Assembly: GCF_041248615.1 (NCBI RefSeq) | Contig: NZ_CP158426.1 | From: Escherichia coli | GTDB taxonomy: Bacteria > Pseudomonadota > Gammaproteobacteria > Enterobacterales > Enterobacteriaceae | Strand: one strand, 5' to 3' | DNA length: 64,000 bases | Part shown: one piece after another, positions 8,635 through 30,345 of the stretch | How positions within the stretch are numbered: position 1 is the first letter of the stretch | Layout: every line of letters begins with the position of its first letter | The notes under the pieces: generated by a model | Told to the model about the DNA's origin: nothing | The model's input: only the letters and a program-made list of their open reading frames with translations | The model's database searches: none | Position numbers and translations under genes: made by a program

Positions 8635-8961
8635 TCAAGGACGTGACGGCGTAAAGATAAATTGTCTCTTCACTCCCTGACAGGGGCGATTCTTTTCAAA
8701 TCGCCATTTCGCCATGGCCTTCACCACTTCATCACGAAACAAATTATGAGGCTCTGAGCGGAGAAAAACGATCCGTGTCACAGTCCCATCAGCACCAATA
8801 TCGAACTTAACCTCAACCAGCCCCTTGATATAATTTGCTGCAGCATATTCCGGATATCGTGGATACACCGTCACTAATTGCCGGGGCTCATCAGCTTTTT
8901 GCTGCGAGCATCCCACTGCCAGGACAGATAACAGAAAAAGTAGTAAAAGGCGTCTTTTCAT
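8635..8961 (-). CDS. lipoprotein consisting of a TonB C-terminal-domain-like fold
   Basis: start MKRRLLLLFLLSVLAVGCSQQ (signal peptide plus lipobox, Ser at +2); remainder matches the TonB C-terminal domain pattern (YP..A....I.G.V.VKFD...DG.V.......S.P.N.F..EV..AM..WRFE) of E. coli TonB as I recall it. Confidence 0.55.
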   Translation of the reverse strand: MKRRLLLLFLLSVLAVGCSQQKADEPRQLVTVYPRYPEYAAANYIKGLVEVKFDIGADGTVTRIVFLRSEPHNLFRDEVVKAMAKWRFEKNRPCQGVKRQFIFTPSRP

Positions 8962-9444: not shown

Positions 9445-9738
9445 ATGAAAAAAATGCTACTCGCTACTGCGCTGGCCCTGCTTATTACAGGATGTGCTCA
9501 ACAGACGTTTACTGTTCAAAACAAACCGGCAGCAGTAGCACCAAAGGAAACCATCACCCATCATTTCTTCGTTTCTGGAATTGGGCAGAAGAAAACTGTC
9601 GATGCAGCCAAAATTTGTGGCGGCGCAGAAAATGTTGTTAAAACAGAAACCCAGCAAACATTCGTAAATGGATTGCTCGGTTTTATTACTTTAGGCATTT
9701 ATACTCCGCTGGAAGCGCGTGTGTATTGCTCACAATAA
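9445..9738 (+). CDS. bor: Bor lipoprotein (serum-resistance family)
   Basis: 97-aa ORF MKKMLLATALALLITGCAQQ..., matches lambda Bor as I recall it. Confidence 0.9.
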   Translation: MKKMLLATALALLITGCAQQTFTVQNKPAAVAPKETITHHFFVSGIGQKKTVDAAKICGGAENVVKTETQQTFVNGLLGFITLGIYTPLEARVYCSQ

Positions 9739-10940: not shown

Positions 10941-11528
10941 AACCCCACCTCGCAGACAAAGCGGGTGTAAATTAAGGGGATACTACGTATCGCAATAAAG
11001 GCAGAAACGTAACAGATTCGGAGTCAGTGAATAACTCAGGTATTGGGTTATCAGCTAATATCGAGACTCAAAAAATGGAAAAACCCGCTCGACGGCGGGT
11101 TTAAGCTGTGTGACGAAGTAACCACTCTTAACAGCATAACCAATTTTTTACGTACGTAAACTACTAAATGATATTTGTGAGAATGCCACCGAGTGTTCAA
11201 AACACCACCACAAATGCATAAGAAAACTTCAACAAATAACCAGTTAATAATTTCCGATGTTATTTTTAGTTTGTTTAAATTAAGCTAAAGAATTATAGAG
11301 CACTTATAAATAAGTGCCATTAATATAAATTAGCTAATAGATTTATTTTTGTTCAGACAAGAGCCATGAATAGGATTAGATAGAAAAGGTTCAGATAAAA
11401 ATAGAGATCTACTTCACAAATTAAATGAGAAACTAAAACTTACATCTTGAAATAATCACATTGATTAGATGAATATTTATCGCGCAGTGACATCATTTTT
11501 TAATAATAGTTCAAAAAAAGGGCGTACA

Positions 11529-12611
11529 ATGAAAAAATTAACAGTGGCAATTTCTGCTGTAGCTGCATCAGTACTGATGGCGATGTCTGCTCAGGCAGCT
11601 GAAATTTATAATAAAGACAGTAACAAGCTGGATCTATACGGGAAAGTTAATGCCAAGCACTACTTCTCCTCTAATGATGCAGATGATGGTGATACTACTT
11701 ATGCCCGTCTTGGCTTCAAAGGTGAAACCCAAATCAACGATCAACTGACTGGTTTCGGTCAGTGGGAATATGAATTCAAAGGCAACCGTGCTGAATCTCA
11801 AGGTTCTTCCAAAGACAAAACCCGTCTTGCATTTGCAGGCCTGAAATTTGGTGATTACGGCTCAATCGATTACGGCCGTAACTACGGTGTAGCATACGAC
11901 ATCGGTGCGTGGACTGACGTTCTGCCAGAATTCGGTGGTGATACCTGGACCCAAACAGATGTGTTCATGACTGGTCGCACTACTGGTGTTGCAACTTATC
12001 GTAACAACGACTTCTTTGGTCTGGTCGATGGCCTGAACTTTGCTGCTCAGTATCAGGGTAAAAATGACCGCACTGACGTAACTGAAGCCAATGGTGATGG
12101 TTTCGGTTTCTCCACTACTTATGAGTATGAAGGATTCGGCGTGGGTGCAACCTATGCTAAATCAGATCGCACTGACGGTCAGGTCGCCTATGGTAAGAGC
12201 AAATTCAATGCCTCCGGCAAAAATGCGGAAGTATGGGCTGCAGGCCTGAAATATGATGCGAACAATATCTATCTGGCTACCACATATTCTGAAACTCAGA
12301 ATATGACCGTTTTTGGTAATAACCATATTGCAAACAAAGCACAAAACTTTGAAGCAGTAGCACAATATCAGTTTGACTTCGGTCTGCGTCCATCTGTTGC
12401 TTACCTTCAGTCAAAAGGTAAAGACCTTGGTGTTCATGGTGACCGAGACTTAGTCAAGTATGTCGATGTCGGTGCTACTTACTACTTTAATAAAAACATG
12501 TCCACTTTTGTTGATTACAAAATCAACTTAATTGACGATAGTAAGTTTACCAAAACAGCTGGTATTGATACCGACGACATCGTCGCTGTAGGTCTGGTTT
12601 ATCAGTTCTAA
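11529..12611 (+). CDS. OmpC/OmpF-family outer-membrane porin (prophage moron, NmpC/Lc type)
   Basis: ORF 11469-12611; start [23 protein letters not shown] at 11529 (signal peptide); porin motifs and C-terminal VGLVYQF; preceded by ~350 bp of AT-rich DNA; opposite in orientation to the late operon. Confidence 0.85.
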
Positions 12612-14358: not shown

Positions 14359-14495
14359 AGGTGGGCTGTGTAATTGAAGGTTTTTACGTCAGATTCTTTT
14401 GGGATTAGCTTGCGTTTATTTCTGGAGCGTTTCGTTGGAAGGTATTTGCAGTTTTCGCAGATTATGTCGGTGATGCTTCGTCGCTGTCGTCTCAT
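14319..14495 (-). CDS. small hypothetical protein with CxxC motif
   Basis: internal start [18 protein letters not shown]... immediately after the methyltransferase stop. Confidence 0.3.
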
Positions 14496-15019
14496 GCAGC
14501 CCTCCTGACGCCCTGCCCGATCGCCATCAATGCCGCTTTGGATACGGTAGTAAACATCCGTCGAGGACTGATGAACGGTCGCCAAATCAGCAGCATGGAG
14601 CCTTTGCTGTTTCCCTTCTTCTCCAGCCCTGTCGATGGTTCGATAAAATTAATCCGTCCATCAGTGATAATACGAACTTCGTCAACACTCTCCAGAGCCT
14701 TGCTGAACCATCCGACAGACATATCCTCTGGCACAAGCATCACTACCGTCTGTCGCTGTTGTATACACTGCTCAGCGGCTTTTTCCACCCACGGCCTGAT
14801 ATTGCTGTACGGTGGGTTATTCCAGATTGCACCGTGGCTTACCCACTCAGAATTGAGCGCGTCGTCGTCCTCAGTTAGCCAGTGAGCGCACAGAGCATTT
14901 TTGTCGCTCGCTGCCGAATCCAGCCAGAATCCAAACTCAATATCCAGTGCATCAAAAAGCCAAAGCGGCGTTTGCCAGCAGTCCTTGTCGTGTGCTGGCG
15001 TATTTGATTTGATAGTCAT
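14492..15019 (-). CDS. phage DNA N6-adenine methyltransferase (Dam-like)
   Basis: ORF 14492-15079; start [22 protein letters not shown] at 15019 directly after the ninB stop; NPPY catalytic motif. Confidence 0.6.
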
Positions 15020-15456
15020 GCAGCCCGATCTCCCCATCGCGCTTTCCATTCGAGAGCCAGTCGCGCTTCGTCTGACCACTTAACGCCACGCTCTGTACCG
15101 AATGCCTGTATAAGCTCTAATAGCTCCGCAAATTCGCTTACACGCATCCTGCTGGTTGACTGGCCTATTACCACAAAGCCATTCCCGGCAAGGTTAGGAA
15201 CAACATCCTGCTGCTTTAATGCTGCGGTAAACACACACTTCCAGCTTTCTGCATCCAGCCAGCGACCATGCCATTCAACCTGACGAGAGACGTCACCTAA
15301 GCAGGCCCATAGCTTCCTGTTTTGGTCTAAGCTGCGGTTGCGTTCCTGAATGGTTACTACGATTGGTTTGGTTGGGTCTGGAAGGATTTGCTGTACTGCG
15401 TGAATAGCGTTTTGCTGATGTGCCGGAGATCGAATTTCAAAGGTTAGTTTTTTCAT
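15016..15456 (-). CDS. ninB: recombination protein NinB
   Basis: start MKKLTFEIRSPAHQQNAIHAV gives 146 aa, matching lambda NinB as I recall it. Confidence 0.85.
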   Translation of the reverse strand: MKKLTFEIRSPAHQQNAIHAVQQILPDPTKPIVVTIQERNRSLDQNRKLWACLGDVSRQVEWHGRWLDAESWKCVFTAALKQQDVVPNLAGNGFVVIGQSTSRMRVSEFAELLELIQAFGTERGVKWSDEARLALEWKARWGDRAA

Positions 15457-18100: not shown

Positions 18101-18217
18101 ATGCCCTCCATAGTAAACACGAATAAAAAAATACAATATGTACTTTGCGAATACAAGTAAAAATACACATTGTGCATGGATGGTTCCAGTACAGAGCGTA
18201 ATAATAAGGACATGAAA
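18101..18217. promoter_or_regulatory. OR operator region with divergent PR and PRM promoters
   Basis: 117-bp AT-rich intergenic region between divergent cro and cI; contains TACAATATGTACTTTG, which shares AAGTACATAT with an OL-region element. Confidence 0.6.
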
Positions 18218-18871
18218 ATGAAATGGTATGAACTGGCTAGATCCAGAATGAAAGAGCTCGGCATAACTCAAGAGAAGTTAGCCGAAGAGCTAGGTATGAC
18301 GCAGGGTGGGATTGGACACTGGTTGCGCGGATCTCGTCATCCATCTCTTAGTGATATTGGTGTGGTGTTTAAATACCTTGGTATTGATAACATATCATTC
18401 AACCACGACGGGACATTTTCACCTGTTGGCGAATACTCATCGGCCCCAGTTAAAAAACAATATGAGTACCCTGTTTTTTCTCATGTTCAGGCTGGGATGT
18501 TCTCTCCAGAACTCAGAACCTTTACCAAAGGCGATGCGGAGAGATTGGTAAGCACAACCAAAAAAGCCAGTGACTCTGCATTCTGGCTTGAGGTTGAAGG
18601 TAACTCAATGACCGCACCAACAGGTTCCAAACCCAGCTTTCCTGACGGGATGTTAATTCTGGTTGACCCTGAGCAAGCTGTTGAGCCCGGCGATTTCTGC
18701 ATAGCCAGACTTGGTGGTGATGAATTTACCTTCAAGAAACTGATCAGGGATAGCGGTCAGGTGTTTCTACAGCCACTAAACCCACAATACCCAATGATCC
18801 CATGCAATGAGAGTTGTTCCGTTGTGGGGAAAGTTATCGCCAGCCAATGGCCTGAAGAGACGTTTGGGTGA
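18218..18871 (+). CDS. cI: CI repressor (non-lambda N-terminal HTH domain, lambda-type C-terminal S24 autocleavage domain)
   Basis: ORF 18170-18871; preferred start ATG 18218 (AAGGA 7 nt upstream; ATG 18212 also possible); C-terminal ~140 aa match lambda CI as I recall it; [11 protein letters not shown] parallels Cro TQGAIGHW. Confidence 0.85.
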
Positions 18872-18910: not shown

Positions 18911-19468
18911 TTGGCAAAAATAGATGATTATCAGCCAAGCCAAGTAGAAGTTGATAAAGTACTTTATTGTAAAAAAATAGTTAACTTTTCTGGCGTTAAA
19001 TGGAAACAGAAACCAAGTCGCTCTGATATGTGGCTACAAGCCCATATCATCCCCTTGGATGAGGATTGTATACCTATACAAGGGCTAAAGTTTGAACTGA
19101 AATGGAAACCAGATCAGGATTCAGAACCTGATGACCCGATTTCTTACCCTAAAATAAATATTATTGCTTTCTATCATAACAAGAGGGTTTTCGCGGTAGA
19201 TACCTATCACTTTGACAAACACACGAATAGTTACAAGGTCGATCATCCGAAGTACCAAGATATCATTTACGGTGCTCACTACCATGTATACTATGAAGAA
19301 GCTGGATACTATAGTGATAGAATAGCGTTTCCAATCGAAGATGACATAAACCCAGATGACCTGGTAGGGTATTGGAATTACTTCTGTAAACATCTGAACA
19401 TAACTTACTCTGGGAGAATACCTTTACCGCTTGAAGATGAGTCGGGGCAAATGGGGTTTGGAATATGA
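18911..19468 (+). CDS. hypothetical protein A of the cI-proximal insert (rexA position)
   Basis: 185-aa ORF, probable TTG start, AT-rich codon usage, no family recognised, no obvious TM segments. Confidence 0.6.
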   Translation: MAKIDDYQPSQVEVDKVLYCKKIVNFSGVKWKQKPSRSDMWLQAHIIPLDEDCIPIQGLKFELKWKPDQDSEPDDPISYPKINIIAFYHNKRVFAVDTYHFDKHTNSYKVDHPKYQDIIYGAHYHVYYEEAGYYSDRIAFPIEDDINPDDLVGYWNYFCKHLNITYSGRIPLPLEDESGQMGFGI

Positions 19469-20217
19469 TGTGCTCAACAGTGATCTCACAACTAGGTTTC
19501 GAATGCCATCCAATAGGCAAGACCTTGAGAATTATCAGTCCATTCACTTACTGTGATGATGGAGAGCATGTCGGTGCCTTTATCCGTGAAGTCAATGGTA
19601 GGTATTTAGTTAGTGACAGATGCGATGCCTTAATGAATATGGAGGCAAGAGGGATCTCGCTTACCAAAAAACGACTTGATGAGATACGACAATTACTGCT
19701 TAAAGAAGGCGCAGAACTCAATGCTCGAGGAGAAATCATTGCTTGGGCAACAGAAAAGGATGTCGGTGCGATTACATCGAACATAATTAGAGCTGGTATA
19801 CTCGCATCAACTTTGTCGTTAGACTGGTATCAGCCAGTTCAAGCTGAAAAGTTTGAAAGTATGGTTATTGATTATCTATATCACACAGAGCTTAGAGACG
19901 CACTTTCTCTTCGTGAAAACGTATATGGCTTGAGTGGACATCAAATTACCGTCCCTGTAACAATAAAAACCGACATACCTAAATACGTTTTTACATCAAG
20001 CGTGAAACACGGAGGAAGCTGGAATAGTGCTTACTCATTGCTTGGGAAACTAATTGATCTTAAAGCTTCAAGTGAGGAGTATAACAACAGATTTGTTGTT
20101 ATAGACAGCGAAGCAATTGGTGATCAAATGCAACAACTCTCCTTACTCTTCCATGAATCAAGCCAAGTTCTACCATTCTCCAAAAGAGAGACTTGGGTTA
20201 AGAGACTTGCAGCATAA
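19465..20217 (+). CDS. hypothetical protein B of the cI-proximal insert (rexB position)
   Basis: 250-aa ORF with ATGATG start overlapping the stop of ORF A (ATGA overlap); AT-rich; no family recognised. Confidence 0.65.
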   Translation: MMCSTVISQLGFECHPIGKTLRIISPFTYCDDGEHVGAFIREVNGRYLVSDRCDALMNMEARGISLTKKRLDEIRQLLLKEGAELNARGEIIAWATEKDVGAITSNIIRAGILASTLSLDWYQPVQAEKFESMVIDYLYHTELRDALSLRENVYGLSGHQITVPVTIKTDIPKYVFTSSVKHGGSWNSAYSLLGKLIDLKASSEEYNNRFVVIDSEAIGDQMQQLSLLFHESSQVLPFSKRETWVKRLAA

Positions 20218-20222
20218 TACAA

Positions 20223-20248
20223 CCCGGCCTCAGCGCCGGGTTTTCTTT
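20223..20248 (+). terminator. intrinsic terminator ending the cI plus two-gene transcription unit
   Basis: stem CCCGGC/GCCGGG, loop CTCAGC, followed by TTTTCTTT; 6 nt after the ORF B stop. Confidence 0.6.
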
Positions 20249-20419
20249 GCCTCACGTTCGCCCACCTAAAAACACATAACCAATTATATTTATTGAAAAA
20301 TAAATAGATGCAACCCACTAAACCACGCAATTCTGATCTCTCCTTACATCGCCGAGGCAATACATCCACGCTAAAAAACAACACTATTAAATACAAAGCG
20401 TTATAAAAAACCACGCCAA

Positions 20420-20470
20420 CTTACAACAAATTGTATTGATCTTGTAAAGTACATATCGTACTATTTAACC
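20420..20470 (+). promoter_or_regulatory. PL promoter with OL operator palindromes
   Basis: TTGATC, 17-bp spacer, TACTAT; inverted repeats TACAA-N4-TTGTA and AGTAC-N5-GTACT overlap the promoter. Confidence 0.5.
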
Positions 20471-20509
20471 GTCAGCAGGACGCTGGAAGCCAAATGGAAC
20501 AGACTGGCA

Positions 20510-20555
20510 GGCTCTTTAAACAACGTCGACTCTCGACTACGTGGCTGAAAAGCCA
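20510..20555 (+). promoter_or_regulatory. candidate nutL (boxA GGCTCTTTAAACAAC, boxB hairpin TGGCTGAAAAGCCA)
   Basis: boxA close to the GCTCTTTAACAA consensus; 5-bp stem with GAAA loop about 100 nt upstream of N. Confidence 0.55.
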
Positions 20556-20653
20556 GATCACCCAACCACATAAGCTGTGGGATGCAATGCCGAAGCAACC
20601 GTCTCAGGAGGAGCTTCGAGATTGCATCGCCAAAGTTTATTCGGGAGGAATCC

Positions 20654-20926
20654 ATGTCCAGAAAAACAGAATTTAAAGGCACCGCAGCTTCTCGCCGTAG
20701 AGCTCGTCGCGCAAATCTGCAAAGTCAGGAGGCGATCAGCTCCGACAAGCTACACAGGCCAACCCCTTCACGAGTGGTCTTGCAATGCAAGCTCAAACCA
20801 GCAATGAGAGCAGAAGTGATAACTCTGACAACGTTGACCAGAAAATATGAAGGTTCAACTTGTCTTCCGAACGTAGCTCTTTACGCGGCAGGCTACCGGA
20901 AATCAAAACAACTGACGGCGAGATGA
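20654..20926 (+). CDS. N: N-type antiterminator (P22 gp24-like)
   Basis: ORF 20582-20926; start MSRKTEFKGTAASRRRARRANLQSQ at 20654 (GGAGG upstream); arginine-rich motif; C-terminal LYAAGYRKSKQLTAR resembles P22 gp24. Confidence 0.75.
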   Translation: MSRKTEFKGTAASRRRARRANLQSQEAISSDKLHRPTPSRVVLQCKLKPAMRAEVITLTTLTRKYEGSTCLPNVALYAAGYRKSKQLTAR

Positions 20927-20942
20927 TAAATTCATTTGCTAA

Positions 20943-21524
20943 TTACTTGTTTTTGCCATGCTTATCCTGAGCGATAAGTTCATCCATAAGGCTGTCTGCC
21001 TTCCCGGCAAACCTAATGTAGCACTCATGTCTATAGCTTTCAGGGATAACGAAACGGTCGGTATCAGGATATCCAACAGCAGGAGGCCTTCGAACGAGGA
21101 GTCCTTTTTTGAGCAATGAAATTGATTCATGAGCGCCCTTTTCCGTTTGTAGCTGGTTATTAGCGGCTACAGCGAATGCCAAATACGCTCTTTCTCCAAG
21201 AGTTAACGAATCAAACAAATCTTGCACATATTTTTCTTCTTTAGATTTGCGCTTCTGAGCAGCGAATACCTCAATTCTTTCAGTCACAGCGTGATAAGCG
21301 GAATTAACAACGCCGTTAAGCACATAGCTAACGCAAAACAACAGGATGTAATACATCCAGTAATGAGGAAGGATTTCTGGACTATGCAGGTTTATCCATT
21401 CTTTTACGCTTACCGGCATAACAATAATCAATATGATCAGGATGATTAGCATATGAATCAACTGTTTAAGTGTCATTCCTTGCAGGAAAAAATGCATTAG
21501 TTCCTGCCACCATGAGTTGTTCAT
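20943..21524 (-). CDS. sieB: superinfection exclusion protein SieB-like (membrane protein)
   Basis: 193-aa ORF MNNSWWQELMHFFLQGMTLKQLIHMLIILIILIIVMPV with TM segments, antisense immediately downstream of N. Confidence 0.6.
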   Translation of the reverse strand: MNNSWWQELMHFFLQGMTLKQLIHMLIILIILIIVMPVSVKEWINLHSPEILPHYWMYYILLFCVSYVLNGVVNSAYHAVTERIEVFAAQKRKSKEEKYVQDLFDSLTLGERAYLAFAVAANNQLQTEKGAHESISLLKKGLLVRRPPAVGYPDTDRFVIPESYRHECYIRFAGKADSLMDELIAQDKHGKNK

Positions 21525-21667
21525 CGGCGTTTCTCTTTTGCTCTCTGTAGGGGTGAATAGAGTTTATCCGATTTCTCGTTGTAGGGGTACACGAGAACCA
21601 CCGAGCCTGATGTGGTTAAAAGACAGGCACAATCTTTACTACCGCAATCCACTATTTAAGGTGATAT

Positions 21668-21754
21668 ATGGAAGAAGAATTTGAAGAGTTCGAAGAGCAT
21701 CCTCAAGATGTGATGGAACAATACCAGGACTATCCGTATGACTACGACTATTGA
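21668..21754 (+). CDS. 28-aa highly acidic mini-ORF overlapping the ral start
   Basis: MEEEFEEFEEHPQDVMEQYQDYPYDYDY; AAGG Shine-Dalgarno-like element upstream; below ORF-track cutoff. Confidence 0.25.
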   Translation: MEEEFEEFEEHPQDVMEQYQDYPYDYDY

Positions 21755-21938
21755 TACAAATCAATGGTGTGGACAATTCAAACGATGCAATGGATGCAAG
21801 CTGCAATCGGAATGCATGGTTAAGCCTGAAGAAATGTTTCCTGTAATGGAAGATGGGAAATATGTCGATAAATGGGCAATACGAACGACGGCAATGATTG
21901 CCAGAGAACTTGGTAAACAGAACAACAAAGCTGCCTGA
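21738..21938 (+). CDS. ral: restriction alleviation protein Ral
   Basis: 66-aa ORF MTTTIDTNQWCGQFKRCNGCKLQSEC..., lambda Ral. Confidence 0.8.
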   Translation: MTTTIDTNQWCGQFKRCNGCKLQSECMVKPEEMFPVMEDGKYVDKWAIRTTAMIARELGKQNNKAA

Positions 21939-22164
21939 TAGTGGCCTTTATTTTTGGCATAAATAACAGAATAAACACTGCACTGTGTATTCATTCCAAC
22001 GAGTGAATACACGGAGCAATGTCGCTCGTAACTAAACAGGAGCCGACTTGTTCTGATTGTTGGAAATCTTCTTTGCCCTCCAGTGTGAGGGCTTTTTTAT
22101 ATGCATACCAATAACGCTTCACTCGAGGCGTTTTCGTTATGCAATCAAATATAAGGAGTTACCC

Positions 22165-22299
22165 ATGATGCACTTTCAGCTCGCGGGTAGCGGCGTCATG
22201 TCCGCTTTCTACCCGCACGAATCTGAATTATCACGCAGAGTTAAACAATTAATCAGAGCAGCAAAGAAACAACTGGAGGCGTTATGCGCAATGAAATAG
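22165..22299 (+). CDS. CIII-like small protein (candidate FtsH inhibitor)
   Basis: 44-aa ORF MMHFQLAGSGVMSAFYPHESELSRRVKQL with AAGGAG 6 nt upstream; loosely resembles lambda CIII. Confidence 0.4.
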   Translation: MMHFQLAGSGVMSAFYPHESELSRRVKQLIRAAKKQLEALCAMK

Positions 22300-22436
22300 C
22301 CATTAATCACCAGATGCTTCGTGCTGCACAGAACAAAGCAGTAATAGCCAGATTTATTGGTGATTCAAAAATGTGGCTTGAAGCAAATAAAGCGATGAAA
22401 TCAGCTATCAACCTTCCGTGGTATCGCAGGAAATGA
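22284..22436 (+). CDS. Kil-like small protein
   Basis: 50-aa ORF MRNEIAINHQMLRAAQNKAVIARFIGDSKMWLEAN...; GGAGG upstream; FIGD.KM motif resembles lambda Kil from memory. Confidence 0.4.
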   Translation: MRNEIAINHQMLRAAQNKAVIARFIGDSKMWLEANKAMKSAINLPWYRRK

Positions 22437-22517
22437 GTTTTACAGATAACTGGTCAGACGAAGAATTCATTCGTCAGATGAAAGAAATGCTCAATCAGCA
22501 CAAAGAACAGGAGAAAG

Positions 22518-22829
22518 ATGATGATTCTGACTCTGAATGATAAGCGTGAAATATCGCAAATAATCGCAAGTTTTACTGATGAAGATTACGAACGAATCAA
22601 CAGTGAAGTTGATCGCCTCTGCAAACGTTGCGACCCAATAAGCGAAATGCTTCGCTCATATAAACCAGATGAACACACTAAGGACGCTATCGACTGGCTG
22701 GAAGATGATGACTGTAACTATCAGGAAAAAGCCGCTGAATGGTTCTGGGATGCAATAACCGAAAGAGTTAAGGCTGAATATGCCTTCGCAATATTCAAAC
22801 GCAGACACATTTATGGAGAAGCAGCATGA
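22518..22829 (+). CDS. hypothetical acidic protein, overlapping the recT start
   Basis: 103-aa ORF; stop overlaps the recT start; no family assigned. Confidence 0.5.
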   Translation: MMILTLNDKREISQIIASFTDEDYERINSEVDRLCKRCDPISEMLRSYKPDEHTKDAIDWLEDDDCNYQEKAAEWFWDAITERVKAEYAFAIFKRRHIYGEAA

Positions 22830-23737
22830 GCAATATCGTTGAATTCGTTAAACAGCAGGAGCAGTTATTCTGCGGGGCATTGACTGAACAGACGGTGACA
22901 TGGGCTAAGGAAAGCCAGTTTGCAATTCAGTATTTCCAGAAAAATGATTACCTGGCTAAAACAGCACTGGCAAATCCAACCAGCGCACAGAACGCCATCA
23001 TCAATGTTGCGGCGATCGGTATCACCTTAAACCCGGCTAGCAAACTGGCTTATCTGGTTCCGCGCGACGGCATGGTTTGCCTTGATATCAGCTATATGGG
23101 ATTGCTACATATTGCAATGGAGTCTGGTGTTATCTCATGGGGTCAGGCAAAGCTTGTTCATGCTAACGATACTTATGAGTCAAACGGACTTGATAAAGCA
23201 CCAACCCATAAATACAACGCCTTCGGTGATCGTGGCGATATCGTTGGTGTTTACTGCACAGTTAAGACGCCAGCAGGTGATTATCTAACGGAAGAGATGA
23301 GTCTGGCTGAAATTGAGGCTGTAAGGAAAACAAGCAAGGCGGCATTCAGCGATAAAGGACCATGGGTAAATCACTGGAATGAGATGGCGCGAAAGACGGT
23401 CGTAAAGCGTGCAAGCAAGTATTGGCCTAAGGCATCACGTCTTGATAGTGCTATTCACGTACTAAACGAAGAAGAAGGTGTATGGACTGAACCAGTTATG
23501 CCTCACAAATCAGAGGAAGATATCCGCGAAGATGAACGGAAACGCCAGCAGGAAATAACGGATAAAGCACAACTTCTTTGTGATGAAATGGCTCAGGCTG
23601 AAAACATGGATGATTTGAAGAGATATTTTGCAGAAGCATATCGCCTGACATCTGGAATGAAATTGCAGCAGAACATACAAGCCATTTACATAGAATGCAA
23701 AGCGAAACTGGAGGTTGCCAGTGAGCAAACTATATGA
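22826..23737 (+). CDS. recT: RecT-family single-strand annealing recombinase
   Basis: 303-aa ORF with GPWVNHWNEMARKTVVKRASKYWP, paralleling the E. coli RecT motif. Confidence 0.8.
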   Translation: MSNIVEFVKQQEQLFCGALTEQTVTWAKESQFAIQYFQKNDYLAKTALANPTSAQNAIINVAAIGITLNPASKLAYLVPRDGMVCLDISYMGLLHIAMESGVISWGQAKLVHANDTYESNGLDKAPTHKYNAFGDRGDIVGVYCTVKTPAGDYLTEEMSLAEIEAVRKTSKAAFSDKGPWVNHWNEMARKTVVKRASKYWPKASRLDSAIHVLNEEEGVWTEPVMPHKSEEDIREDERKRQQEITDKAQLLCDEMAQAENMDDLKRYFAEAYRLTSGMKLQQNIQAIYIECKAKLEVASEQTI

Positions 23738-24203
23738 AATTGCCAATGAATACGCAAAATTGATGGATTCAGATTTAGAACCAGAGATGATTGCTGACAC
23801 AATAGAAGGCATGGAAGGAGAATTTACCGATAAAATAGAACAACTTCTTTCCGTCATTAAAAATGAATCTGGTTATGCCGAACGCCTCAAGGAAGAGGCA
23901 AAGTCACTAAATGAGCGAGCCGCAGTAATTCAAAACAAGATTGACAGCATCAAATCATATATAGCGTCATCGCTTGAAATGGTTGGAAAGAAAAATATTC
24001 GAGCAGGTATTCACCAGGTAACAATCCGCAAACCGTCAGAAACTGTAGAAATCATCGACTCAAGCGCCCTTCCTCCTGAATACGTTGAGTTCGAAACGAC
24101 AATTAAAGCCGACAAACTGGCAATCAAACACCAACTAAAAGCAGGAATAAATATCCCCGGTGCTCAACTCAAAGTTGGAAAACCTTCACTTCTTATCAAA
24201 TAA
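23715..24203 (+). CDS. hypothetical phage protein (possibly siphovirus Gp157-like, often next to recT)
   Basis: 162-aa ORF in operon context; family call from memory only. Confidence 0.4.
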   Translation: MPVSKLYEIANEYAKLMDSDLEPEMIADTIEGMEGEFTDKIEQLLSVIKNESGYAERLKEEAKSLNERAAVIQNKIDSIKSYIASSLEMVGKKNIRAGIHQVTIRKPSETVEIIDSSALPPEYVEFETTIKADKLAIKHQLKAGINIPGAQLKVGKPSLLIK

Positions 24204-24214
24204 CGGTATCGCCT

Positions 24215-24529
24215 ATGAAAAAGACTCCATGGGAGAAATGGGAAGTCGATTTCTTGCGCGAGGTAGCGGCGACAATGCCAGTTGAAGTTATCGCAGAAAA
24301 ACTGGAAAGGACTGAAAAAGCAGTAATGGCGAAAGCAACAAGGATTGGCGCTGACATTGTTAGCCGACTTCGTGGAAGACGATGGACAAGAGCCGAAGTA
24401 TCACTTTTCGGTAAGTTCTCAGCAGAAGAAATAGCAATTGCAACCTGCCGCTCAATTTATTCAGTAAGAGCTATGCGATACAAGCTAAAAAAACTCGATG
24501 AAGAAAGAGCAGGCATACGAATAAATTAA
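24215..24529 (+). CDS. hypothetical protein
   Basis: 104-aa ORF in the early-left operon. Confidence 0.5.
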   Translation: MKKTPWEKWEVDFLREVAATMPVEVIAEKLERTEKAVMAKATRIGADIVSRLRGRRWTRAEVSLFGKFSAEEIAIATCRSIYSVRAMRYKLKKLDEERAGIRIN

Positions 24530-24545
24530 CATGGAGTAATTAACA

Positions 24546-24827
24546 ATGAAGCTAAACATCGACCTCGGAAAATACGTTATTACCGGAACCAAACACGACC
24601 TGATTCTTAGTGAAAGAGGAATTATCAAAGAAGGCGAGAATGCAGGGAAAGAAACACTAAGCCGTATCGGTTATTACAGCAAGTTTGAGCATCTGGTTAA
24701 AGAGTTATGCAACCGTGAAATCCTGTTATCTCAGGCGCAGACGCTACAGGATATTCAGCAGCATATCGAGACTTTAGGTATGTCACTTAGCATGGCTATT
24801 GACCAGTTAGTGGAGAGTAAATCATGA
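24546..24827 (+). CDS. hypothetical protein
   Basis: 93-aa ORF in the early-left operon. Confidence 0.5.
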
Positions 24828-24984
24828 GAGGACTTGCATACAATCCCGGAATTCTTCCGGCAGAAATGATTATTCGCCAACGCGTAAAGCCAATGCCATC
24901 GAGAGAGGAATTGCTTAAGAGAAATTCTTTTCCATCAGTGAATCAAAACAAATATCTGAATGCGATGTGGCGGAGTGGGAAGAA

Positions 24985-25416
24985 ATGAAACAAATGTCAC
25001 TAATTGAGATGGATGGTTTTCTGAAAGGTAAATGCATCCCAAGTGATTTAAAGGTTAACGAAACAAACGCTGAATATCTGGTGCGTAAATTTGCTGAAGC
25101 GGAGGCCAAGTGCGCGGCGCTGGCAGCGGAGAATGCGGGGCTGAAGTCTGGCGCTATGGGCGAAATCAAGGTTATCAACCGTGGAGGGCAGGCATATTGC
25201 GTAAAAGATGGAGTGCAAGTTAATCCCATGTATGCAAGAGGGTGGAATGACTATCGCGCAAAGTCTCTGCAATCAGACACCCAAGCCACCGATGCTTTCC
25301 TGGCTGAAGTACGGGCGCAGGGCGTGGAGATGTTTGCTGAGTGCGCATACACACTTGAACATCATGATCACGCAGTAGCCTTCGCCGCTGAGCTTCGCAA
25401 AGGAGGCAACCAGTGA
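24985..25416 (+). CDS. hypothetical protein
   Basis: ORF 24967-25416; likely ATG start at 24985 ([11 protein letters not shown]...). Confidence 0.5.
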
Positions 25417-25958
25417 GTGTAACGGTTGAAAAGATTGATGTGTTGTCATTCGTTATAACCGGTGCAGAGCGACTAGATCCGGTTCGAGTGATGATTGAAA
25501 ACTACGAACCTGGTAAGGGAAGAATCACCATCACCTGCTACGGAAAGGCGTGGACTGCGGCTTGGTTTGCTATGGGCGGTGATGATGTGCAGACGTTCAT
25601 TAAGCGGGTCAGCAACGAGTATCTAATCGGCTATTTCGACCCACAACTGCGAAGCACGGTCGACGATGACAACGATGCAAATCTGCTTTTCGTGAAGTCA
25701 GAAATCATAAAGTTACGAAGAGAGAGAGAAATAGACGCCGTACTGGCTCGCGAAATGTGGGACGAGGCGGAAAACGCCGATGACGTAAAAGAAAGCTGCT
25801 GCTGTTTCGGCGTCGGTAACAAACTACTGAATCTCTTTGGTGATGATCCGTGGTATGCCGACTGGCCAACGGTACCAAACCCGAAATACCAGTATCTGGA
25901 ACGCGTACTTAATGCAGTGAGAGACGGTCTTAAGCAAATAGAGAAGGTGGAACCATGA
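25413..25958 (+). CDS. hypothetical protein
   Basis: 181-aa ORF, GTG start with AGGAGG 7 nt upstream; start overlaps the previous stop. Confidence 0.55.
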   Translation: MSVTVEKIDVLSFVITGAERLDPVRVMIENYEPGKGRITITCYGKAWTAAWFAMGGDDVQTFIKRVSNEYLIGYFDPQLRSTVDDDNDANLLFVKSEIIKLRREREIDAVLAREMWDEAENADDVKESCCCFGVGNKLLNLFGDDPWYADWPTVPNPKYQYLERVLNAVRDGLKQIEKVEP

Positions 25959-26254
25959 CTGTATGTCTTATTGATAAACGTCGACGTGGGCAACAAATAC
26001 CATCTGTTGAAATGCCGAATCACACATGGTTTTGCGTACTTGATATCGATGGCATGGATAAGTTTGTTGACACTCGTCATTACTGCGATACCGCAACAGC
26101 TACTCCGGCGAAAGCAAAGAAAATGGCTGCTCTGATAGAAAACTGGACTCCACCTGATGGTTGGTGCAATGGGAATGATCGAGATTGGCACGAAAAAATG
26201 AAGGGCTATATCTGCGATTTTTTACGTAAATGCAACGGATTCAGGGTGATGTGA
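25955..26254 (+). CDS. hypothetical protein
   Basis: 99-aa ORF; ATGA overlap with the previous ORF. Confidence 0.5.
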   Translation: MTVCLIDKRRRGQQIPSVEMPNHTWFCVLDIDGMDKFVDTRHYCDTATATPAKAKKMAALIENWTPPDGWCNGNDRDWHEKMKGYICDFLRKCNGFRVM

Positions 26255-26255
26255 C

Positions 26256-26888
26256 ATGAGCAAGATTGACTATCAGGCACTGCGTGAAGCGGCAGAGCGT
26301 GCAATTCCGGCAATGGAACGCCTGTTAATGTTGCCAGCTGATGATGATTTGTTAAGTGAACAGGAACTTAAAGATTACGGTGTGGATATTGATGCGCTCA
26401 ACGCCTTCAAATTTCTGACCGGACCAGAAACCGTGCTGGCGCTGCTGGATGAACGGGAAAGAAACCAGCAATACATAAAACGCCGCGATCAGGAGAACGA
26501 GGATATTGCGCTAACGGTAGGGAAACTGCGTGTTGAGCTTGAGGAAGCAAAATCAAAACTCAACGAGCAACGCGAGTATTACGAAGGTGTTATCTCGGAT
26601 GGGAGTAAGCGTATTGCTGAACTGGAAGCACGGGAAATAAAACCAGCCAAAGGTGAAGTTCTTGTCGTTGTTTCTGGTTTTACTGGTTGCGGAAAAAGCG
26701 CCATTGCCGGGGAAATAGAAATCGCGATGAAGGCTATTGGTGTACCGGTTAAGTGGACTAATGGCGATGCAGAAAAGCGCATGACTGGCGCTGACTGGCT
26801 GACAGCGATTGAGATGTACAAACCAACTGTGCGCATCGTGGAAGTTAATGTGCCACGCGCCGCTGGCATTCGCATCAAAGGAGACTGA
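26256..26888 (+). CDS. hypothetical protein with predicted coiled-coil middle region
   Basis: 210-aa ORF. Confidence 0.5.
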   Translation: MSKIDYQALREAAERAIPAMERLLMLPADDDLLSEQELKDYGVDIDALNAFKFLTGPETVLALLDERERNQQYIKRRDQENEDIALTVGKLRVELEEAKSKLNEQREYYEGVISDGSKRIAELEAREIKPAKGEVLVVVSGFTGCGKSAIAGEIEIAMKAIGVPVKWTNGDAEKRMTGADWLTAIEMYKPTVRIVEVNVPRAAGIRIKGD

Positions 26889-26889
26889 T

Positions 26890-27087
26890 ATGGATAAAAA
26901 CACCACTGCTTACTGGAATCTGTCACTTGATACCGAATGCCCAAAATGCGGTCACAATTTCGATCTGCTTTGCGATCCAGATTTCTGGGAATTTTCTGGA
27001 GCAAAACAGGCATGTGAAGAAATAAAAGGTTACGAAACATGCTGTCCAGAATGTAACCATGAATTTAAAACAGATTTTGTGTATTGA
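26890..27087 (+). CDS. small zinc-ribbon-like protein
   Basis: 65-aa ORF MDKNTTAYWNL... with CPKCGH and CCPECNH cysteine pairs. Confidence 0.45.
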   Translation: MDKNTTAYWNLSLDTECPKCGHNFDLLCDPDFWEFSGAKQACEEIKGYETCCPECNHEFKTDFVY

Positions 27088-27097
27088 GGCATAACGA

Positions 27098-28285
27098 ATG
27101 ACCACTTTTACTAAAGAACAATTAATAGAGATGATTAAGCGCAATATAACGGTTATGGATCGTTATCCTGATTTAGTAACTGCACAAATGGATCTGGAAG
27201 TATACAAAATTGCGCTGGCATCACTGGAAGCAGAACCAGTTGCTTATATTTTCAAACATCCGGCCGGGAAATTATTCTGGGCTTTAACGGATGAAAGCAA
27301 TAAAGAGCAACCGGACGTTATTCCTGTTTATGCTGACTCACCTGCGCCGGTTGTGCCGGATGAAATAGACGTAAACGATGTGCCAAGGGCGGTGACATAT
27401 TTCAAGACACACAGAGATTGTTACGCAGATGGCTGGAACGCCTGCCGCGCCGCCATGCTTCAGTCCGGAAACTTTCGGGAAAACAAGAATTCGTCAACCA
27501 ATAATTTTCGGGAAATCGCGGAAACGTCAACCAACTATCCGGTAATTCCTAGTGAGGTGTTGTCCGCAATCCAGAAGGTTGCCAAGATTCGTGCCGATTT
27601 CGATGATTTTGACGGTGACAGGCGAGGTATCGGTGATTGTCTGGATGAGGCTGAGCAAGAGCTTATCGTTACCATTAACAAATATGCCAGTCAGTTGGCA
27701 GCAGAACCTATAGCGCCTAATGACGTTCGAGAGCAGCAGACAGCCGTTCCGCCAGTTCCAGAAATACAGGCTGATGTCGCGCAAGCAATTGAAAATCTCA
27801 AGCAGAAGTTAGTGGAATGCAATCGCTATAACTACTGTGCAGATGCAGTTAAAGGCGTAGAGGATGCCTGCCGTGCTGTTAGCTATAGCCAAGCCGACAA
27901 TCAGCCAGCATCTGGCAACCAGGCTGCCGAATCCAATCGCGATAATGAGTGGACTGGCAATCCTGATATTGATAACGCCATCATCATGCTCGACCGCATA
28001 GATACGCTGGAAAATTGCGATGATGACCGTATTGAGGCTGTTAAGGCTGTTTTGCGTAGACTGGCTGGCAACTATCCGGTAACTCCGGATAGTTGGATAA
28101 GCTGTAGTGAGCGAATGCCCGCTCAAGATGATTGGATTTTAATTTATTCAAAGCACGGCGAGTATATGGCAGGACAGGTACAAGGGGAATACGTGGAGTT
28201 GAGCGACGGCACTTTATCGTGGTTAGGGAACGCCTTGTACTGGATGCCTCTACCAGAACCGCCGAAGGAGGTTAACCGTGGCTAA
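27098..28285 (+). CDS. hypothetical phage protein with C-terminal DUF551-like domain
   Basis: 395-aa ORF; C-terminal WISCSERMPAQDDWILIYSKHGEYMAG typical of DUF551 from memory. Confidence 0.5.
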   Translation: MTTFTKEQLIEMIKRNITVMDRYPDLVTAQMDLEVYKIALASLEAEPVAYIFKHPAGKLFWALTDESNKEQPDVIPVYADSPAPVVPDEIDVNDVPRAVTYFKTHRDCYADGWNACRAAMLQSGNFRENKNSSTNNFREIAETSTNYPVIPSEVLSAIQKVAKIRADFDDFDGDRRGIGDCLDEAEQELIVTINKYASQLAAEPIAPNDVREQQTAVPPVPEIQADVAQAIENLKQKLVECNRYNYCADAVKGVEDACRAVSYSQADNQPASGNQAAESNRDNEWTGNPDIDNAIIMLDRIDTLENCDDDRIEAVKAVLRRLAGNYPVTPDSWISCSERMPAQDDWILIYSKHGEYMAGQVQGEYVELSDGTLSWLGNALYWMPLPEPPKEVNRG

Positions 28286-29203: not shown

Positions 29204-30335
29204 ACCCCGATCTCACAAAATCTCTATACCCAATTTATATTGCAAATTAGATAAGCGAACCGGAAAGGTATATTGGCAATACAAACATCCACTATCCGGT
29301 CGTTTTCATAGCTTAGGAACTGATGAGAATGAAGCAAAACAAGTTGCTACTGAAGCAAATACCATTATTGCTGAACAACGTACCCGACAAATATTAAGCG
29401 TCAATGAGCGTCTAGAAAGAATGAAAGGCAGGCGCTCAGACATTACGGTGACAGAATGGCTTGATAAATATATTTCTATCCAGGAGGACAGGCTGCAACA
29501 TAATGAACTAAGACCCAACTCCTATCGGCAAAAAGGCAAACCCATTCGTCTTTTCCGTGAGCATTGTGGAATGCAACACCTCAAGGATATTACCGCACTT
29601 GATATTGCCGAAATAATTGATGCTGTAAAGGCTGAAGGTCATAACAGGATGGCGCAAGTCGTGAGAATGGTGTTGATCGACGTCTTCAAAGAAGCACAAC
29701 ACGCAGGACATGTTCCGCCAGGATTTAACCCAGCGCAGGCAACAAAACAACCGCGAAATCGAGTAAACCGCCAAAGATTATCACTGCCCGAATGGCAGGC
29801 AATATTTGACAGCGTAAGCAGACGGCAGCCCTATTTAAAATGCGGGATGCTACTTGCTCTTGTCACTGGACAACGTTTAGGCGATATCTGCAATTTGAAA
29901 TTCTCTGATATCTGGGACGACATGTTGCACATTACTCAGGAAAAAACCGGTTCAAAACTTGCTATTCCGCTTAACCTGAAATGCGATGCTCTGAATATTA
30001 CCCTTCGTGAAGTTATATCTCAGTGCAGGGATGCTGTTGTTAGTAAATATCTGGTCCATTACCGTCACACTACCTCTCAAGCAAACAGAGGAGACCAGGT
30101 GTCTGCAAATACTCTTACAACGGCTTTTAAAAAGGCCAGGGAAAAATGTGGCATAAAATGGGAGCCAGGAACTGCGCCCACATTTCATGAGCAGCGATCT
30201 CTGTCAGAACGGTTATATCGGGAACAGGGTCTGGATACGCAAAAGTTGTTAGGTCATAAATCCAGAAAAATGACCGACCGATACAATGATGATCGTGGTA
30301 AAGACTGGATTATCGTAGATATCAAAACAGCATAG
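29193..30335 (+). CDS. int: tyrosine integrase (e14/phage 21 icd-targeting type)
   Basis: 380-aa ORF with C-terminal catalytic region (HEQRSL...LGHKSRKMTDRY); adjacent to the icd 3' end. Confidence 0.9.
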   Translation: MAARPRSHKISIPNLYCKLDKRTGKVYWQYKHPLSGRFHSLGTDENEAKQVATEANTIIAEQRTRQILSVNERLERMKGRRSDITVTEWLDKYISIQEDRLQHNELRPNSYRQKGKPIRLFREHCGMQHLKDITALDIAEIIDAVKAEGHNRMAQVVRMVLIDVFKEAQHAGHVPPGFNPAQATKQPRNRVNRQRLSLPEWQAIFDSVSRRQPYLKCGMLLALVTGQRLGDICNLKFSDIWDDMLHITQEKTGSKLAIPLNLKCDALNITLREVISQCRDAVVSKYLVHYRHTTSQANRGDQVSANTLTTAFKKAREKCGIKWEPGTAPTFHEQRSLSERLYREQGLDTQKLLGHKSRKMTDRYNDDRGKDWIIVDIKTA

Positions 30336-30345
30336 AAAATAGCCA

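What the first reader, a model, noticed from the sequence alone, without database searches (positions are those of the whole stretch)
20943..21524. SieB-like membrane exclusion gene antisense downstream of N
A 193-aa ORF with two strongly hydrophobic segments lies on the opposite strand immediately after N, the position and orientation of sieB in lambda and P22. Together with the cI-proximal pair, the TonB-like lipoprotein, Ral and the Dam-like methyltransferase, this prophage carries several layered host-protection functions.
Basis: partly seen in the sequence, partly recalled or inferred. Interest (0 to 1): 0.3.

Follow-up and report, generated by a model that had tools for sequence, protein, structure and literature searches.

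The report
Known SieB phage-exclusion gene, P22 type
This is an ordinary, already annotated copy of the prophage gene sieB, which makes a lysogenic bacterium abort infections by rival phages; it comes with its known self-protection parts (the internal Esc start and the sas antisense RNA).

Summary
The 193-aa ORF at 20943..21524 (minus strand) is real.

It is a true SieB:
- Pfam PF14163 gives E 9e-22.
- PHROG 1301 gives E 1e-121 over the full length.
- It is 82% identical (E 5e-111) to the experimentally studied P22 SieB.
- It is 100% identical to RefSeq WP_001066176.1, "super-infection exclusion protein B", in E. coli prophages.
- It is the P22 type. Identity to lambda SieB is only about 20%, although both match the same Pfam family.

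The rest of the P22 module is also present:
- the region homologous to the annotated sieB promoter and RNA start;
- the in-frame Met25 that starts Esc in P22, which is invariant in 24 homologues;
- a 126-nt stretch on the plus strand (21520..21645) that matches the P22 sas antisense RNA at 122 of 127 positions.

The most likely function is prophage-expressed abortive infection, with Esc and sas giving self-immunity. This is inferred by homology and was not tested here.

An AlphaFold model suggests a cytoplasmic C-terminal domain with a weak resemblance to MarR-type winged helices. That is only a lead.

Verdict: observation confirmed, interpretation supported, already known, low interest.

The parts
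20943..21524 (-). sieB coding sequence (193 aa plus stop). Full-length SieB is the exclusion protein.
   Evidence: ORF. PF14163, E 9e-22. PHROG 1301, E 1e-121. 82% identity to P22 SieB, E 5e-111. 100% identical to annotated SieB in E. coli prophages and in phages PhiR57_1 and ev017. dN/dS 0.08-0.48 against three homologues.
20943..21452 (-). Putative esc reading frame. It is the in-frame internal start at Met25 (ATG 21450-21452) and would give a 169-aa product lacking the first 24 residues.
   Evidence: P22 esc is annotated from 29830, which is codon 25 of sieB. This maps to window 21452. Met25 is invariant in 24 aligned homologues, including lambda SieB. Translation from this ATG was not shown here.
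21561..21591 (-). Region homologous to the annotated P22 sieB promoter. The homologue of the P22 sieB RNA start falls at window 21554.
   Evidence: P22 features at 29690-29720 and 29727, mapped through the DNA alignment. The ral-to-sieB intergenic region is 95% identical to P22. The generic sigma-70 scan did not pick up this site.
21525..21554 (-). Inferred 30-nt sieB mRNA leader, including the ribosome-binding region (AAGAGAAACGCCG before the ATG).
   Evidence: Mapping of the P22 RNA start site and the sequence.
21520..21645 (+). Homologue of the P22 sas antisense RNA. It is complementary to the sieB start codon, leader and promoter region, but not to the esc start.
   Evidence: The 127-nt P22 sas sequence from RNA-seq (PMC13397905, Table 2) aligns here with 122 identical positions, 4 substitutions and 1 indel. 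There is no Rfam family. Its folding energy is not unusual (z -0.47).
21405..21461 (-). Hydrophobic segment 1 (residues ~22-40), a predicted transmembrane helix.
   Evidence: Kyte-Doolittle peak 3.03. Helical in the AF2 model. Highly conserved.
21297..21362 (-). Hydrophobic segment 2 (residues ~55-76), a predicted transmembrane helix. It is followed by a K/R-rich stretch (6 K+R in residues 77-100).
21000..21227 (-). C-terminal soluble domain (residues ~100-175), predicted with high confidence. It weakly resembles winged-helix (MarR-type) folds.
20654..20926 (+). N antiterminator gene, the upstream neighbour on the pL transcript. It defines the context.
   Evidence: PF25694, E 1.5e-32. RefSeq 'transcriptional antitermination N peptide'.
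21738..21938 (+). ral (restriction alleviation), the downstream neighbour on the pL transcript.
   Evidence: PF11058, E 1.7e-48 over the full length. RefSeq annotation.

Best explanation
The ORF is the sieB gene of an E. coli lambdoid prophage and is an orthologue of P22 sieB. By homology with P22, the prophage transcribes it from its own promoter, against the direction of the repressed pL operon. It produces a small inner-membrane protein with two transmembrane helices and a cytoplasmic C-terminal domain. When a rival phage superinfects, SieB aborts that infection by stopping cellular macromolecular synthesis midway through the lytic cycle. This is abortive infection, not a block to DNA entry. 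The phage protects itself in two ways. An internal in-frame start at Met25 yields Esc, a shortened SieB that inhibits the full-length protein. An antisense RNA, sas, is made by the lytically growing phage on the pL-sense strand. It covers the sieB start codon and leader but not the esc start, so translation shifts from SieB to Esc. Shown here: gene identity, gene context, and conservation of the Esc start, the promoter region and the sas sequence. Inferred from P22 literature: expression, the exclusion phenotype and the translational switch. Unknown and only guessed: the molecular killing step. I favour a membrane-level action triggered through the cytoplasmic domain, with Esc acting as a dominant-negative partner.
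For: Family membership: PF14163, 77.7 bits against a cut-off of 26, and PHROG 1301, E 1e-121 over 1-193. Orthology to the characterised protein: 82% identity over 191 aa, E 5e-111. The first ~84 codons and the upstream region are 95-97% identical to P22 at the DNA level. Synteny with P22 and lambda: N, then sieB antisense, then ral. The Esc start Met25 is invariant in 24 homologues and matches the P22 esc annotation. The sas homologue matches at 122/127 positions. Purifying selection: dN/dS 0.08-0.16 for codons 1-84 and 0.18-0.48 for the rest. The identical protein is annotated as SieB in RefSeq, and the 1.6-kb region has a match covering at least 80% of it in 218 complete E. coli genomes. Physiology and the Esc/sas logic come from the literature: PMC10461980, PMC12197685, PMC10002423, PMC3224144 and PMC12888859. 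All of these cite Susskind et al. 1974 and Ranade & Poteete 1993.
Against: There are no expression or phenotype data for this E. coli allele. All functional knowledge comes from P22 in Salmonella, and less from lambda. The C-terminal half is only about 76-90% identical to P22 at the DNA level, with 32 differing codons that change the amino acid, so specificity may differ. The generic sigma-70 scan does not detect the sieB promoter, nor any plus-strand promoter for sas. The Met25 ATG has no obvious Shine-Dalgarno sequence. The leader targeted by sas differs from P22 at 3 of ~36 positions. The original Ranade & Poteete papers could not be read here, so details of sas biogenesis rest on secondary sources and my memory.
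Confidence: 0.88

Rival explanations
1. The gene is an intact but functionally silent passenger. It was inherited by mosaic recombination from a P22-like ancestor and gives no exclusion against phages that E. coli actually meets.
For: There are no phenotype data. Lambdoid genomes are mosaic: the prophage backbone beyond ral differs between genomes that share this 1.6 kb. In some lineages an IS3-family element sits inside the same 1.6-kb region.
Against: dN/dS is well below 1 in both halves. The reading frame, the promoter region, Met25 and sas are all conserved. Identical copies occur in many genomes.
Confidence: 0.08
2. The protein blocks entry of superinfecting DNA at the membrane. That would be true superinfection exclusion like P22 SieA or T4 Imm, rather than abortion of an infection already under way.
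For: It is a small two-helix membrane protein. The name and some reviews group it with injection blockers.
Against: Literature on P22 states that SieB stops macromolecular synthesis midway through the lytic cycle, whereas SieA is the system that acts at DNA injection (PMC10461980). A self-immunity system that depends on RNA made by the incoming phage requires the DNA to have entered.
Confidence: 0.03
3. The C-terminal domain is a true winged-helix DNA-binding module. SieB would then act as a membrane-tethered regulator or nucleic-acid sensor rather than as a membrane-damaging effector.
Confidence: 0.15

Closest known systems
Salmonella phage P22 SieB / Esc / sas (Susskind et al. 1974; Ranade & Poteete 1993)
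   Same: It is 82% identical in protein sequence and differs in length by one residue (193 vs 192 aa). It has the same two hydrophobic segments and the same position antisense between the N homologue (gene 24) and ral. The promoter region is 95% identical. The Met25 Esc start is the same, and the sas sequence is nearly identical.
   Different: The host is E. coli rather than Salmonella. The C-terminal third is more diverged (76-79% DNA identity over codons 129-192). There are three differences in the sas-targeted leader. The neighbouring N has a different N-terminal part; VT1-Sakai annotates its N, beside a 92%-identical SieB, as phi-21-like.
SieB of E. coli lambdoid prophages and phages (RefSeq WP_001066176.1; phages PhiR57_1, ev017; VT1-Sakai SieB)
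   Same: It is 100% identical to WP_001066176.1 and to the SieB of PhiR57_1 and ev017. It is 92% identical to VT1-Sakai SieB, which has the same context next to N.
   Different: Nothing of substance differs. This is the same gene.
Phage lambda SieB (NP_597779, 184 aa)
   Same: Same Pfam family PF14163. Same position and orientation between N and ral. The Met corresponding to Met25 is conserved. An Esc product is also reported for lambda (PMC3224144).
   Different: Only about 20% identity, and pairwise BLASTP is barely significant (E 0.022). The N-terminus and C-terminus differ.
Lambda S105/S107 holin-antiholin dual start (analogy only)
   Same: One gene yields two membrane proteins from alternative in-frame starts, and one inhibits the other (PMC3224144, Table 1).
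   Different: There is no sequence relationship. In S the longer form is the inhibitor, while in SieB the shorter form (Esc) is. The switch is made by an antisense RNA rather than by an mRNA stem-loop. This comparison rests on general knowledge and was not tested.

Membership tests
SieB (Pfam PF14163 / PHROG 1301) | Sequence match to the family profile above the curated threshold | tested here: met
   PF14163: 77.7 bits against a cut-off of 26, E 9e-22. PHROG 1301: E 1e-121 over the full length.
SieB (Pfam PF14163 / PHROG 1301) | Close similarity to the experimentally characterised P22 SieB | tested here: met
   156/191 identical, E 5e-111.
SieB (Pfam PF14163 / PHROG 1301) | Small protein (~190 aa) with two N-terminal hydrophobic (membrane) segments | tested here: met
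   193 aa. Hydrophobic segments at residues 22-40 and 55-73. Both are helical in the AF2 model.
SieB (Pfam PF14163 / PHROG 1301) | Location between N and ral, transcribed against pL | tested here: met
   N at 20654..20926 (+), sieB at 20943..21524 (-), ral at 21738..21938 (+). P22 and lambda have the same arrangement.
P22-type sieB/esc/sas module | In-frame internal start (Met25) for the Esc inhibitor | tested here: met
   The ATG at 21450-21452 aligns with the annotated P22 esc start. It is invariant in 24 homologues. This is sequence-level evidence only; translation was not shown.
P22-type sieB/esc/sas module | Antisense sas RNA covering the sieB start and leader | tested here: met
   Window 21520..21645 (+) matches the P22 sas RNA-seq sequence at 122/127 positions. 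Transcription in this prophage was not shown.
P22-type sieB/esc/sas module | Own promoter active in the lysogen | tested here: inconclusive
   The homologue of the annotated P22 promoter and RNA start is conserved. The generic sigma-70 scan does not report it, and there are no expression data.
P22-type sieB/esc/sas module | Abortive exclusion of superinfecting phages that lack esc | not testable with these tools
   This needs plating or one-step growth assays. It is known only for P22 and lambda, from the literature.
Known defence systems in PADLOC-DB v2.0.0 | Match to a PADLOC protein model | tested here: not met
   No PADLOC family matched at E <= 0.01.
MarR-type winged-helix proteins | Significant fold or sequence match to the winged-helix domain | tested here: inconclusive

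The most novel reading that the evidence does not exclude
The best-predicted part of SieB is a cytoplasmic winged-helix-like domain held at the membrane by a long helix. It is less constrained than the membrane part (dN/dS up to 0.48 against ~0.1). If that domain is the sensor that recognises a product of the invading phage, then its divergence between alleles, together with the few differences in the sas-targeted leader, could set which phages each SieB allele excludes and which it spares. This would give a first molecular handle on a 50-year-old system whose mechanism is unknown.
Probability: 0.2. Interest if true: 0.35.

Novelty: already known. Interest (0 to 1): 0.1.

Why it matters
It matters little as a discovery. 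The gene, its family, its position and its regulation are textbook P22 and lambda biology, and RefSeq already names this exact protein. The useful results are modest:
- This allele is the P22 type, not the lambda type.
- The full sieB/esc/sas module is intact in an E. coli prophage, so phage-resistance or phage-therapy work on strains with this prophage should allow for a SieB-type abortive system.
- PADLOC-DB v2.0.0 gave no match to this protein.
- How SieB kills is still unknown. The predicted winged-helix-like cytoplasmic domain is a cheap, testable lead.

Tried and rejected
- Rfam search of 20000-22500 at E <= 1 gave only chance-level hits (snoR126, mir-15, rliG). There is no family for sas.
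- Folding the sas homologue gave -32.6 kcal/mol, z -0.47 against shuffles, so there is no thermodynamic signal.
- The sigma-70 and terminator scan found one promoter-like site, inside sieB on the minus strand (21476-21448), against 3.8 expected by chance. I dismissed it. It found no plus-strand promoter upstream of the sas 5' end.
- The PADLOC scan gave no hit for SieB, Ral or N.
- The PDB sequence search gave no relative at E <= 10.
- NCBIfam gave only a meaningless sub-threshold hit.
- Pfam on the C-terminal 96 residues alone showed no winged-helix family.
- I tried to read Ranade & Poteete 1993 (J Bacteriol and Genes Dev) by PubMed id and PMC id, but they are not held. I used secondary sources instead.
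- I considered diversifying selection on the C-terminal half because raw counts there were 32 nonsynonymous to 11 synonymous codon differences. I rejected it because Nei-Gojobori dN/dS is 0.18-0.48, below 1.

Full report
**Observation**

One search lists an ATG-initiated ORF at 20943..21524 on the minus strand, 193 aa. It is longer than any ORF found in 200 shuffles of the surrounding 3 kb (mean longest 84 aa, maximum 180).

A 19-residue hydropathy scan gives two hydrophobic segments, at residues ~22-40 (peak 3.03) and ~55-73 (peak 1.53). A lysine/arginine-rich stretch follows, with 6 K+R in residues 77-100. By the positive-inside rule, which is general knowledge, the C-terminal two-thirds should be cytoplasmic.

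The ORF sits tail-to-tail, 17 bases from the stop of a plus-strand gene at 20654..20926. That gene is a true N antiterminator (Pfam PF25694, E 1.5e-32). On its other side lies Ral at 21738..21938 (PF11058, E 1.7e-48). The CI-type repressor (HTH_3 plus Peptidase_S24) lies upstream at 18212..18871.

**Identity**

- The protein passes the Pfam SieB model PF14163 (77.7 bits against a cut-off of 26, E 9e-22).
- It matches PHROG 1301 end to end (E 1e-121).
- tblastn against 50,697 phage records finds 91 records, 89 of them covering at least 80% of the protein. Almost all are annotated SieB or superinfection exclusion. Two are 100% identical (Escherichia phages PhiR57_1 and ev017). VT1-Sakai SieB is 92% identical and P22 SieB about 82%.
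- Direct BLASTP against the P22 protein gives 156/191 identities, E 5e-111.
- Against lambda SieB the pairwise match is marginal (about 20% identity, E 0.022). Lambda SieB and P22 SieB both belong to PF14163. The gene is therefore a P22-type allele of the family.
- In complete E. coli genomes the 1.6-kb region has a match covering at least 80% of it in 218 genomes. The protein is RefSeq WP_001066176.1, 'super-infection exclusion protein B'.
- The whole prophage segment 8000-30000 is 99.8% identical to a prophage of E. coli NRZ14408.
- A search of 5.8 billion proteins found 116 relatives. Those that carry an organism name come from Escherichia, Salmonella, Citrobacter, Leclercia, Yersinia, Enterobacter, Obesumbacterium and Arsenophonus. 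All but three short fragments carry PF14163.

**Anatomy beyond the ORF**

The annotated P22 record lists a sieB promoter (29690-29720), the sieB RNA start (29727), sieB (29758-30336) and an internal esc CDS that starts at 29830, which is codon 25.

A DNA alignment of the window with P22 maps these features as follows:

| P22 feature | Window position (minus strand) |
|---|---|
| sieB promoter | 21591-21561 |
| sieB RNA start | 21554 |
| sieB ATG | 21524 |
| esc ATG | 21452 |

The ral-to-sieB intergenic region is 95% identical to P22. Codons 1-64 are 96-97% identical at the DNA level, falling to 76-79% for codons 129-192. This is the usual lambdoid mosaic pattern.

Met25 is one of only eight invariant columns in an alignment of 24 homologues down to 20% identity, lambda included. 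That fits a conserved second start.

A 2026 RNA-seq study of P22 gives the sequence of the sas antisense RNA as 127 nt (PMC13397905, Table 2). It aligns to the window plus strand at 21520-21645 with 122 identities, 4 substitutions and 1 indel. The stretch covers the sieB start codon (21522-21524), the 30-nt leader and the promoter region. It stops short of the esc ATG. This geometry is what a switch needs in order to silence SieB but spare Esc.

**Function and mechanism**

The following comes from the literature, not from tests here.

- P22 prophages express sieB. SieB exclusion stops cellular macromolecular synthesis midway through the lytic cycle of superinfecting P22-like phages, but not of P22 itself (PMC10461980).
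- sieB encodes both SieB and Esc, an in-frame shorter product that inhibits SieB. The sas antisense RNA (105 nt, cis-acting) pairs with sieB mRNA and switches translation towards Esc, so the phage escapes its own exclusion system (PMC12197685; PMC10002423; PMC7067206; PMC3224144; PMC12888859). All of these cite Ranade & Poteete 1993.

Every sequence element of this module is conserved, so I infer the same mechanism for the window gene.

Nei-Gojobori dN/dS against P22, VT1-Sakai and Hafnia phage Pocitis76 is 0.08-0.16 for codons 1-84 and 0.18-0.48 for the rest. The gene is under purifying selection, more relaxed in the C-terminal domain.

I cannot say how sas is made. The scan found no sigma-70-like promoter upstream of its 5' end. 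This fits, but does not prove, an origin from the pL transcript. That origin would explain why only a derepressed or superinfecting phage makes it. This is my inference.

**Structure lead**

An AlphaFold2 model from the 24-sequence alignment has mean pLDDT 79.8. The N-terminal membrane part is poorly predicted (pLDDT 52-66). Residues ~100-190 are predicted well (ten-residue block means 88-95).

The model's elements are a long helix (56-105) that continues from the second hydrophobic segment, then helix 109-120, strand 125-128, helix 132-139, strands 144-146 and 155-159, and helix 162-172.

Esc lacks the conserved N-terminal 24 residues, including the amphipathic helix at residues 4-14, and begins three residues into the first hydrophobic segment (residues ~22-40). 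That fits a dominant-negative partner. This is inference only.

**Rivals**

- A silent relic is unlikely, given the conservation and dN/dS.
- An entry-blocking mechanism contradicts the published physiology and the logic of an immunity RNA made by the incoming phage.
- A role as a membrane-tethered DNA-binding regulator rests only on the weak fold match.

**Comparison and novelty**

This is the same gene as the annotated SieB of many E. coli lambdoid prophages and a close orthologue of P22 SieB. It meets all sequence-testable defining features. The promoter test is inconclusive and the phenotype is untestable here. The finding is already known. It is not in PADLOC-DB v2.0.0, which is a practical gap rather than a biological novelty.

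The remark about layered protection holds at the annotation level.

- A 108-aa protein with a lipobox (LAVGC) and a TonB_C domain lies at 8635..8961.
- Bor/Iss lies at 9445..9738, and a Dam-family methyltransferase at 14492..15079.
- The two genes after cI, at the rexA/rexB position, match the PADLOC candidate system PDC-M24 (A: E 4.8e-4; B: E 4.7e-10).

**Verdict**

The gene is ordinary and already explained. Interest is 0.1.

Noticed in passing
window 18911..19468 (+) and 19465..20217 (+): Two overlapping genes lie directly after the cI repressor gene, where lambda has rexA and rexB. They match the PADLOC candidate defence system PDC-M24: protein A at E 4.8e-4 and protein B at E 4.7e-10. In Pfam they match DUF6978 (below the cut-off) and DUF1828. 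RefSeq calls them 'hypothetical' and 'DUF1828 domain-containing'. This pair is probably more interesting than sieB.
   Followed up: partly
window 20494..20676 (+): A 60-aa ORF is annotated as a hypothetical protein (WP_000438342.1) in RefSeq and overlaps the start of N. It has no Pfam hit. It covers a boxA-like GCTCTTTAA (20511-20519) followed by a hairpin at 20525-20537. This looks like nutL, so the ORF is probably a spurious call.
   Followed up: partly
window 11469..12611 (+): A full-length general porin gene (Pfam Porin_1, E 2e-151; RefSeq 'porin OmpC') sits inside the prophage between the lysis genes and the Q antiterminator. It is a moron that could change the receptor surface.
   Followed up: no
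window 8635..8961 (-) and 9445..9738 (+): A small lipoprotein with a TonB C-terminal domain (108 aa, lipobox LAVGC) and a Bor/Iss serum-resistance lipoprotein lie next to the lysis cassette.
   Followed up: partly
window 20400..22000, compared with ATCC 25922, CFT073 and M16807 genomes: In these E. coli lineages the otherwise 100% identical 1.6-kb N-sieB-ral region is split into two pieces by an IS3-family (ISEc52) insertion. sieB is still annotated as intact there. I did not determine the exact insertion point or whether it separates sieB from pL or sas.
   Followed up: no
window 21520..21554: Three of the five differences between the window sas homologue and P22 sas fall in the ~35 nt that overlap the sieB mRNA leader and start. 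Whether this affects cross-protection between phages carrying different alleles is unknown, and the clustering is not statistically meaningful.
   Followed up: no
window 22000..28000, compared with L001 (strain 1105): Downstream of ral the window carries RecT, a siphovirus Gp157 family protein and other genes. Strain 1105 shares identical cI-N-sieB-ral but carries ea10-cIII-kil-gam-bet-exo instead. A mosaic junction therefore lies just beyond ral.
   Followed up: no
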